NCBI GenBank assembly: GCA_964016885.1
Contig: OZ024743.1
Coordinates: forward strand, 281,666,001-281,730,000
Direction of reading: 5' to 3'
DNA length: 64,000 nucleotides
Source of the DNA: Eledone cirrhosa
Lineage: Eukaryota
The position numbers and the translations under genes are program-made. Under the pieces are notes generated by a model. The model ran no database searches. It was given only the letters and a program-made list of their open reading frames with translations, and was not told the origin of the DNA. This document shows positions 25 through 56,237 of the stretch, in pieces; the stretch's first letter is position 1, and each line of letters begins with the position of its first letter.

Positions 25-55492
<55,468 letters not shown>

Positions 55493-55981
55493 CTAAATGA
55501 AGAAAAAAATATGAAATAAGAATTTACTATCTTCAGAAATTTTAGAACAGAAATTATATTTCTCAAACAAAAAGAATGAAATAAATGTATTTAAAAACAG
55601 CAACATATAAAATAGTCTATAAAAAAAAAAAAAAAAGAAGATATTTGTCATATCCATAGAGTAAAAAATAGATTACTATTTTAGTTTAATATCATTTTTT
55701 TTGTTGGGTTTTTGCTTTGTACCAGCATATGTAGTTGTAGTTTAACCCTAGGTTAGTGCTGTATGACTAAGCAGAACTGATGATCAAGTGTTCCTGCAGC
55801 AAACCATCCCTCCAATAATTTGTTTCAATATACTTGCTGCTTTGGCTTTTACTACACTGATTTTCTATTGACTTTAAATATGTTAGTATGATCATGTTTT
55901 TAATTTCTTTCTTAGTCTTGTATTGGTGATAAAAAAGCATAAGCTAATAATAATACACATGTACAGTATATATATATATAT

Positions 55982-56100
55982 ATAGGAGTAAGTAAGACCC
56001 CGACGGCTGAGCTCAAGCCGTTTCGACGGCTAATTCTGCAGTACAGAATTAGCCGTCGAAACGGCTTGAGCTCAGCCGTCGGGGTCTTACTTACTCCTAT
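55982..56100. repeat. Perfect 57-bp inverted repeat with a 5-nt loop, part of a ~195-bp GC-richer insert (55982-56177) in (TA)n
   Basis: 55982-56038 is the exact reverse complement of 56044-56100; loop CAGTA. Confidence 0.97.
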
Positions 56101-56176
56101 TACCCACTCTACTACCCTAAGTATTGAGTACTTTGGTGCGTTATGGTCCACCTGGTTCCTTACCACTTTTCCCTCG

Positions 56177-56237
<61 letters not shown>

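What the first reader, a model, noticed from the sequence alone, without database searches (positions are those of the whole stretch)
55982..56177. Perfect 57-bp hairpin built from half a hammerhead ribozyme, ~490 bp upstream of the first MG1 exon
Seen: a flawless IR with a 5-nt loop, CpG-rich in otherwise CpG-poor DNA, sitting in (TA)n. Its centre GACGGCTAATTCTG-cagta-CAGAATTAGCCGTC is followed directly by GAAAC-GGCTTGAGCTCAGCC-GTC-GGGG. That reads as hammerhead stem II, GAAAC, a near-palindromic stem III and a GUC cleavage triplet. The CUGANGA side is replaced by an inverted copy of the 3' side. Inference: a young Penelope-type insertion whose inversion breakpoint fell in stem II, so the ribozyme's own hairpin may have primed fold-back synthesis. 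The result is a catalytically dead but perfect hairpin that could act as a cruciform, a Dicer/ADAR substrate or a trans-cleavable half-ribozyme.
Basis: partly seen in the sequence, partly recalled or inferred. Interest (0 to 1): 0.7.

Follow-up and report, generated by a model that had tools for sequence, protein, structure and literature searches.

The report
Head-to-head Penelope stubs marking RNA start
This hairpin is one of many hundreds of near-identical stub insertions of a Penelope-like jumping gene, made of two short end-pieces joined head to head, likely because two separately primed copying reactions each ran off the capped start of the element's RNA; the locus itself is likely of no use to the host, but the family offers a test of how these elements copy themselves.

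Summary
The 57-bp perfect inverted repeat is real. It is a stub of a young Hydra-clade Penelope-like element (1,574 exact core matches genome-wide; full-length copy found), sitting in (TA)n in intron 1 of an alpha-2-macroglobulin-like gene. The family's hammerhead has the known U3-A8 core (UUGANAA, 67 of 70 long arms), not CUGANGA. The joint lies in loop II, at an initiator-like site 30 nt behind a TATA-like box. In 48 of 48 close pairs, one arm carries a 77-nt tail and the other does not. The tailless arm is the longer in 15 of 48, and 12 joints have no loop, which fold-back cannot easily give. Arms begin at -6..+5 (61 of 100), often behind an untemplated G (327 G, 191 T, 57 A); a smaller peak sits at the predicted ribozyme cut. 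Best reading: two cDNAs primed from the two target ends at two internal sites run off the capped RNA 5' end and are end-joined. No RNA 5'-end data were available. This scan has noted the same architecture and reading before, on other DNA of this and other genomes.

The parts
55967..55983 (.). left (TA)n target tract; shares 2-3 bases with the arm end
55982..56038 (-). tailless arm: element positions +5 to +61 (numbered from the predicted RNA start), sense on the minus strand
56039..56177 (+). tailed arm: element positions -1 to +138
56040..56040 (+). +1: A of the initiator-like site, predicted transcription start; 30 nt behind a TATA-like box in long copies (the box is absent from this stub)
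   Evidence: G excess
56050..56085 (+). 3' half of a type I hammerhead: stem II 3' strand (56050-56057), GAAA, stem III, GUC with predicted cut after 56080 (+41), stem I 3' strand
56101..56177 (+). 77-nt tail between the two element ends (+61 and +138), i.e. between the two inferred reverse-transcription start sites
56178..56233 (.). right (TA)n target tract
55334..55492 (-). host exon 2 (MG1-like) of an alpha-2-macroglobulin-like gene; the insertion lies in the ~78-kb intron 1, about 490 nt before this exon

Best explanation
The hairpin is a minimal head-to-head insertion of a Hydra-clade Penelope-like retroelement, likely made of two separately primed cDNAs that each ran off the capped 5' end of the element's mRNA. 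Shown: family identity, the two fixed outer ends (+61, +138), one end of each kind per insertion, clustering of inner ends at -6..+5, the G excess, and varied microhomology or filler joints. Inferred: the endonuclease opens (TA)n on both strands; each 3' end primes reverse transcription at one of two internal sites 77 nt apart, probably on the same RNA; because the promoter lies in loop II of the hammerhead, an mRNA from the upstream pLTR has both sites within 140 nt of its cap, so both enzymes run off after about 61 and 138 nt, often copying the cap as an extra base; the two cDNA ends are trimmed and joined by microhomology-type end joining. A minority of arms come from ribozyme-cut RNA (start at +42). 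Long copies need RNA with the start sites at its 3' end (read-through) or a template jump. This copy is a dead, probably neutral by-product.
For: Family: 40 of 40 scored hits 100% identical over 134 nt, 996 candidates; 1,574 core matches; 833 tailed arms; full-length copy L127, period 3,707 bp, ORF beginning about 230-300 nt after +1. Two primers: 48 of 48 close pairs have one tailed and one tailless arm (46 by script, 2 by eye); 118 of 122 in the wider, non-random set; tailless arm longer 15, equal 17, shorter 16; 12 zero-loop palindromes on a self-complementary 4-mer; 27 microhomology, 5 blunt, 16 filler joints; tailless arms of 1.6-2.8 kb against tailed arms under 200 nt (L031, L134); two pairs with arms from different subfamilies (L093, L225). 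PLE protein cuts and extends both strands and starts at two internal sites in vitro (PMC11167929). RNA start: 97 of 122 arms begin at -7..+12, 7 of 122 reach beyond -40; 61 of 100 tailed arms begin at -6..+5 (overlaps the first sample by about half). Base before +1 genome-wide: C (templated) 1,025, G 327, T 191, A 57; 0 of 30 G-arms continue into upstream element sequence; about 23 of 30 not explained by the partner arm, 10 of these on tailless arms; 11 of 15 arms starting exactly at +1 have G. TATA-like box at -30/-29 kept across subfamilies. The peak lies 10 nt past the 3' strand of stem II, so not where a stem would stall the enzyme. L231 and L255 continue from a G-led stub into leader/ORF sequence (+80..251, +95..330), so the template extended into the ORF. 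An untemplated 5' G is read as a cap mark for L1 (PMC9341517). Ribozyme cut: 5 of 100 tailed arms start at +41..+44, both arms in L257.
Against: No RNA 5'-end data: the start site and cap are inferred from DNA. Inner ends are spread over about 12 nt and microhomology blurs them (a -4 start can be a +1 start plus the partner's bases). T before +1 is also common (191). The G could be ordinary non-templated addition, or be copied from a similar 5-mer in the tail (a 5-nt match is seen in only 8 arms, but shorter matches cannot be excluded; T precedes the G in most of 30 cases). In older subfamilies only 5 of 11 G cases viewed were unambiguous. A second start at -4 has weak support (26 of 66 G, several ambiguous). 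Arms share the subfamily tag in 103 of 108 pairs, which fits one RNA but also fits fold-back. Central deletions after insertion could create some arm asymmetry.
Confidence: 0.7

Rival explanations
1. Two cDNAs as above, but the stop at +1 is a pause or drop-off site in loop II of an RNA that extends upstream (the 3' pLTR), with non-templated G addition; no transcription start there.
For: No RNA evidence for a start; spread of ends; the young subfamily has a small hairpin at -13..+2; long copies read through +1 without a scar (345 exact matches to -9).
Against: Older subfamilies lack that hairpin yet stop at the same place; TATA-like and initiator-like motifs at textbook spacing; G outnumbers A about 6 to 1, whereas A is the usual non-templated addition (recalled); templates extend into the ORF (L231, L255).
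Confidence: 0.15
2. Fold-back self-priming (first reader; also the published reading of PLE palindromes, PMC3846280): one cDNA folds on itself and copies back to +61.
For: Arms share subfamily tags in 103 of 108 pairs; in 16 of 48 pairs the geometry allows it; fillers in joints are often copied from nearby element sequence.
Against: Tailless arm longer in 15 of 48; 12 zero-loop joints; kilobase tailless arms beside short tailed arms; G-led tailless arms whose partner lacks those bases (e.g. L063, L079, L085); +61 is also the end of long copies, so it is a priming site, not a copying stop; two mixed-subfamily pairs.
Confidence: 0.09
3. A single hairpin master (MITE- or retrozyme-like non-autonomous element) that amplified as a unit.
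For: Hundreds of near-identical short hairpins; the zero-loop form recurs (12 of 48).
Against: Joints differ from copy to copy; arms of all lengths exist; the same layout recurs in each subfamily.
Confidence: 0.04
4. Assembly or library fold-back artefact.
For: This particular insertion was not checked against reads spanning it.
Against: Fixed asymmetric tail rule; arms diverge independently (112 rare variants in one arm, 6 in both); short-read contigs show (TA)n behind +61 and inverted-arm sequence before -4 (these runs may be the assembly's own sample, so not independent of the animal, only of the assembly).
Confidence: 0.02

Closest known systems
Hydra clade of C-terminal EN+ Penelope-like elements (Craig et al. 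2021, PMC8557442), e.g. Hydra-1_Obim, Hydra-2_Amil
   Same: Single ORF with RT then GIY-YIG endonuclease; RWK-like, DKT, CxCX5C, CxxC and CxH motifs; (TA)n targets; hammerhead at the 3' end.
   Different: A separate family: its core 13-mer is absent from the paper's supplement; the hammerhead has a U3-A8 core and a 38-nt loop II, against ctgaagag and an 8-nt loop in Hydra-1_Obim; unit 3.7 kb against 'generally <3 kb'.
Standard EN+ PLE insertion: pLTR, adjacent inverted 5'-truncated copy, one-sided 30-40-bp tail (PMC3846280, PMC8557442, PMC8969392)
   Same: Exactly this layout, in its smallest form; TATA plus initiator motifs in a pLTR were also noted in Adineta (PMC3846280).
   Different: Tail is 77 nt; stubs far outnumber long copies; truncation is not random but piled at one site; the published explanation is self-priming, which the data here disfavour.
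Internal initiation by Poseidon_Ac in vitro (Frangieh et al. 2024, PMC11167929)
   Same: Two internal start sites bounding the tail; both target strands cut and extended; AT-rich targets; 5' truncation of the RNA shortens the product.
   Different: Different clade; the parts read did not address head-to-head joining, the RNA start or the cap.
U3-A8 hammerhead variant of Schistosoma PLEs (Cervera and de la Pena 2014, PMC4209133)
   Same: U3-A8 covariation in the core; motifs in pLTRs; pairs on opposite strands 100-700 bp apart.
   Different: Here stem III is full and loop II is long and holds the predicted promoter.
L1 twin priming and the cap-derived 5' G; retroviral minus-strand strong-stop DNA (twin priming and strong-stop recalled; cap G from PMC9341517)
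   Same: Works like twin priming (both target ends prime on one RNA) and like strong-stop synthesis (priming near the 5' end, run-off at the cap).
   Different: Arms overlap (inverted duplication, not inversion with deletion); primed by target DNA at fixed internal sites; not an L1 or an LTR element.

Membership tests
Hydra-clade PLE | Single ORF, RT followed by C-terminal GIY-YIG endonuclease | tested here: met
   Translations of L038, L047, L051, L127, judged by motifs and by eye against the Hydra proteins printed; Pfam gave no hit at E<=0.1.
Hydra-clade PLE | RWK motif and DKG changed to DKT | tested here: met
   RWR and DKT in the L127 ORF; definition.
Hydra-clade PLE | CxCX5C linker; CxxC and CxH around the conserved E and N of the endonuclease | tested here: met
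   CNC-x5-C, CNLC and CKH in 5 of 5 translated copies.
Hydra-clade PLE | Insertion into (TA)n | tested here: met
   Nearly all 30 loci and the loci end in (TA)n.
Hydra-clade PLE | Placement in the Hydra clade by RT phylogeny | not tested
   Reference proteins were seen only as cut text in a supplement; no tree was built.
EN+ PLE insertion layout | pLTR direct repeat, inverted 5'-truncated copy, one-sided tail | tested here: met
   L127 has all three; 48 of 48 pairs have a one-sided tail.
Type I hammerhead ribozyme (family, long copies) | Core CUGANGA / GAAA / UH, or the U3-A8 variant, with three stems | tested here: met
   UUGANAA in 67 of 70, CUGANGA in 0 of 70; N7 varies (C, T, G, A); 99% of cells paired in stems I-III over 8 rows, but no compensatory change, so no covariation support.
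Type I hammerhead ribozyme (family, long copies) | Self-cleavage | not testable with these tools
   Indirect only: 5 of 100 tailed arms start at +41..+44.
Type I hammerhead ribozyme (this locus) | 5' core box and stem I 5' strand present | tested here: not met
   Replaced by the inverted arm.
Neptune-clade PLE (first considered) | CX2-5CxxC linker | tested here: not met
   Linker is CxCX5C, and DKT replaces DKG.
Non-LTR retrozyme | Tandem monomers each with a whole hammerhead | tested here: not met
   Copies are dispersed, head-to-head, with half a ribozyme; definition from search listing and passages.

The most novel reading that the evidence does not exclude
Hydra PLEs replicate by a target-primed strong-stop route: the promoter sits inside the hammerhead, so the mRNA begins with the ribozyme's 3' half and, once cut at the downstream pLTR, ends at +41. 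Both priming sites then exist only near the 5' end, +1..+41 is a terminal repeat like a retroviral R region, and a full-length copy needs the run-off cDNA to jump to the RNA's 3' end, possibly guided by pairing of the two ribozyme halves. The thousands of hairpin stubs would be failed jumps, and the hammerhead would at last have a job: defining R.
Probability: 0.2. Interest if true: 0.8.

Novelty: new variant of a known kind. Interest (0 to 1): 0.5.

Why it matters
The locus itself is an ordinary dead stub. The family matters because how Penelope-like elements form head-to-head inverted ends, and what their hammerheads do, are open questions (PMC8557442 names both; PMC3846280 proposed self-priming). 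The copies here give countable evidence against self-priming and for two-site priming with run-off at the RNA start, and they name exact positions (+1, +41, +61, +138) to test with the existing in vitro PLE system. They also leave many hundreds of perfect 50-60-bp hairpins in the genome, some intronic, a predicted source of double-stranded RNA.

Tried and rejected
No RNA holder listed for the element's 5' region; not used for or against. Laying contigs of X1-X4 gave far higher summed depth over +1..+138 than beside it, but the tool warns this is no copy number and X1-X3 match the unique flank at 100%, so they may be the assembly's own sample; not counted as independent. The flank lay did not bridge the insertion because 55808-55955 is another repeat. 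Rfam found no hammerhead. Pfam did not recognise the ORF. A source copy with G at -1 was rejected: none of 15 arms continues upstream. Minimum-energy folding does not recover the hammerhead fold of the long motif. A recombination signature between upstream and downstream subfamily tags in long arms, which a jump between RNAs could leave, was not seen. The 'twin hairpin' behind each end, a lead from scan notes, was inconclusive here: z -0.9 and -1.7, with a shared 9-mer about 26 nt behind each end. L260 was dropped from the +42 peak (a one-base deletion, not a start): one search's p of 0.001 counted it; 5 of 8 gives about 0.005 by hand. A genome-wide direct count of hairpins was not obtained. 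Literature searches found no paper describing cap run-off or two-site priming as the source of PLE palindromes; Arkhipova 2006, Evgen'ev and Arkhipova 2005 and Schostak 2008 were not read and may bear on it, as may the closed supplements of the bioRxiv retrozyme preprint.

Full report
1. Observation. The inverted repeat is exact: arms 55982-56038 and 56044-56100, 57 nt, 100% complementary, folding z -16.7, CpG-rich against its flanks (0.98 vs 0.22), between (TA)n tracts. Its protein matches are weak, but a contig of run X4 covers exactly this exon and continues into an exon near 49796 and into a signal-peptide-like exon about 78 kb away. The hairpin is therefore in intron 1 of an alpha-2-macroglobulin-like gene.

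2. What it belongs to. The stretch 56044-56177 has 996 candidates in the window's genome; the 40 scored are all 100% identical. A 30-nt core has 1,574 exact matches. One locus led upstream into an ORF, and longer copies gave an RT followed by a GIY-YIG endonuclease. L127 is a full-length copy with direct pLTRs 3,707 bp apart and an adjacent inverted copy. Its motifs (RWR, DKT, CxCX5C, CxxC, CxH) and (TA)n targeting match the Hydra clade as defined in PMC8557442 section 11; no tree was built. It is not Hydra-1_Obim.

3. The ribozyme. Long copies show the missing half: stem I 5' strand, then UUGANAA, then the stem II 5' strand. TTGANAA is in 67 of 70 long arms, CTGANGA in none. This U3-A8 core is reported for PLE hammerheads (PMC4209133). 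Stems I-III pair in 99% of cells over 8 close rows, without compensatory changes. Loop II is 38 nt and holds a TATA-like box and, 30 nt later, an initiator-like site whose A is numbered +1 (window 56040). The window's joint is there, not in stem II.

4. Anatomy across copies. The first 100 of the 1,574 matches, taken in genome order, form 74 insertions; 48 are close head-to-head pairs, and every one has one arm ending at +138 and one at +61 (46 by script, 2 by eye). At least 8 of the 26 'solo' cases have, by eye, a shorter antisense partner. Of 122 arms, 97 begin at -7..+12 and 7 reach beyond -40. A second sample, the first 100 of 833 tailed arms anchored further downstream (about half shared with the first), gave 61 starts at -6..+5, 26 at +6..+38, 6 at +41..+44, 7 further upstream; 81 have a close antisense partner, 1 of them flagged as tailed. 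The window's copy is +5..+61 joined without overlap to -1..+138.

5. Two cDNAs, not fold-back. If one cDNA folded back, the tailless arm could never be the longer and a loop would be needed. The tailless arm is longer in 15 of 48, equal in 17, shorter in 16; 12 joints are zero-loop palindromes; 27 show microhomology, 5 are blunt, 16 have filler (values typed). L031 and L134 have kilobase tailless arms beside tailed arms under 200 nt. Long copies also end at +61. Against: arms share the subfamily tag in 103 of 108 pairs, which fits fold-back as well as one shared RNA; L093 and L225 are clear exceptions. The in vitro Poseidon protein cuts and extends both strands and starts at two internal sites bounding the tail (PMC11167929). 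The published reading of such palindromes is self-priming (PMC3846280 Discussion).

6. Why the arms stop at +1. Genome-wide, the base before +1 is C (templated) in 1,025, G in 327, T in 191 and A in 57 arms; 345 arms match exactly to -9. None of 30 G-arms continues into upstream element sequence; a script found 23 of 30 not explained by the partner arm (by eye a few calls either way are arguable). A variant source or copying from the tail explains few: 5 and 8 arms. Older subfamilies (6,308 arms matching) stop at the same site; G leads in 48 of the first 100 listed, but only 5 of 11 viewed were unambiguous. An untemplated 5' G is taken as a cap mark for L1 (PMC9341517). +1 lies about 230-300 nt before the ORF, and two insertions run from a G-led stub into leader and ORF sequence (L231, L255), so the template was the mRNA's front end. 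Five of 100 tailed arms start at the predicted ribozyme cut, both arms in L257 (L260 dropped), which suggests the U3-A8 ribozyme cuts read-through RNA. All of this is DNA evidence; the start site and the cap are inferred.

7. Function of this copy. None is shown. Intron-1 pre-mRNA would contain a perfect 57-bp duplex, a predicted ADAR or Dicer substrate (general knowledge, untested). The half-ribozyme is locked in that duplex.

8. Novelty. The layout is the textbook PLE inverted pLTR with a one-sided tail, at its smallest. The mechanism argued here was not found in seven literature searches, but older subscription papers were not read. I wrote this reading down, before looking at the scan's notes; those notes show the same architecture and reading on other DNA of this and other genomes, and are not counted as support.

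9. Papers seen. PMC11167929: parts 1-2 of 4 of the text. PMC8557442: passages, outline, section 11, supplement passages. PMC3846280: passages and the Discussion. PMC4209133, PMC9341517, PMC8969392 and bioRxiv 10.64898/2026.07.22.740005: passages only. L1 twin priming, retroviral strong-stop DNA, TATA/initiator spacing, hammerhead numbering and the usual bias of non-templated addition are recalled.

10. Verdict. Real, ordinary as a locus, useful as a family. New variant of a known kind; interest 0.5.

Noticed in passing
window 55334-55492 and about 49610-49800 (minus strand); L312:9827-9903: Exons 1-3 of an alpha-2-macroglobulin/thioester-protein-like gene; intron 1 is about 78 kb; splicing seen in a contig of run X4.
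   Followed up: partly
L257, L256, L269, L298, L131: Arms that begin at the predicted hammerhead cut (+41..+44); in L257 both arms do, giving a palindrome centred on the cut site.
   Followed up: partly
L231:1380-1760, L255:1122-1566: A G-led stub continues by a jump into leader/ORF sequence (+80..251; +95..330) before joining its partner.
   Followed up: partly
L093, L225: The two arms of one insertion carry different subfamily tags, suggesting two RNA templates or a later insertion.
   Followed up: partly
L013, L014, L020, L012 joints: Joints filled with tandem re-copies of 9-17 nt of nearby element sequence, as in polymerase-theta-type end joining (recalled).
   Followed up: no
L092, L140, L170, L197 (older subfamily arms): Runs of T (or A on the partner side) directly before +1, as if the cDNA 3' end had been A-tailed before joining.
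   Followed up: no
L127 +62..+100 and +139..+176; window 56101-56142: A similar short motif lies about 26 nt behind each of the two element ends; folding support is weak.
   Followed up: partly
L226: A long arm with G in place of C at -5, a possible cap scar left by a jump, or a point mutation; single case.
   Followed up: no
window 55808-55955: Another dispersed repeat lies directly left of the (TA)n target.
   Followed up: no
L127 3' UTR, about +2800..+3400: The element's long 3' UTR holds an internal tandem repeat of about 30-40 nt whose copy number varies between copies.
   Followed up: no
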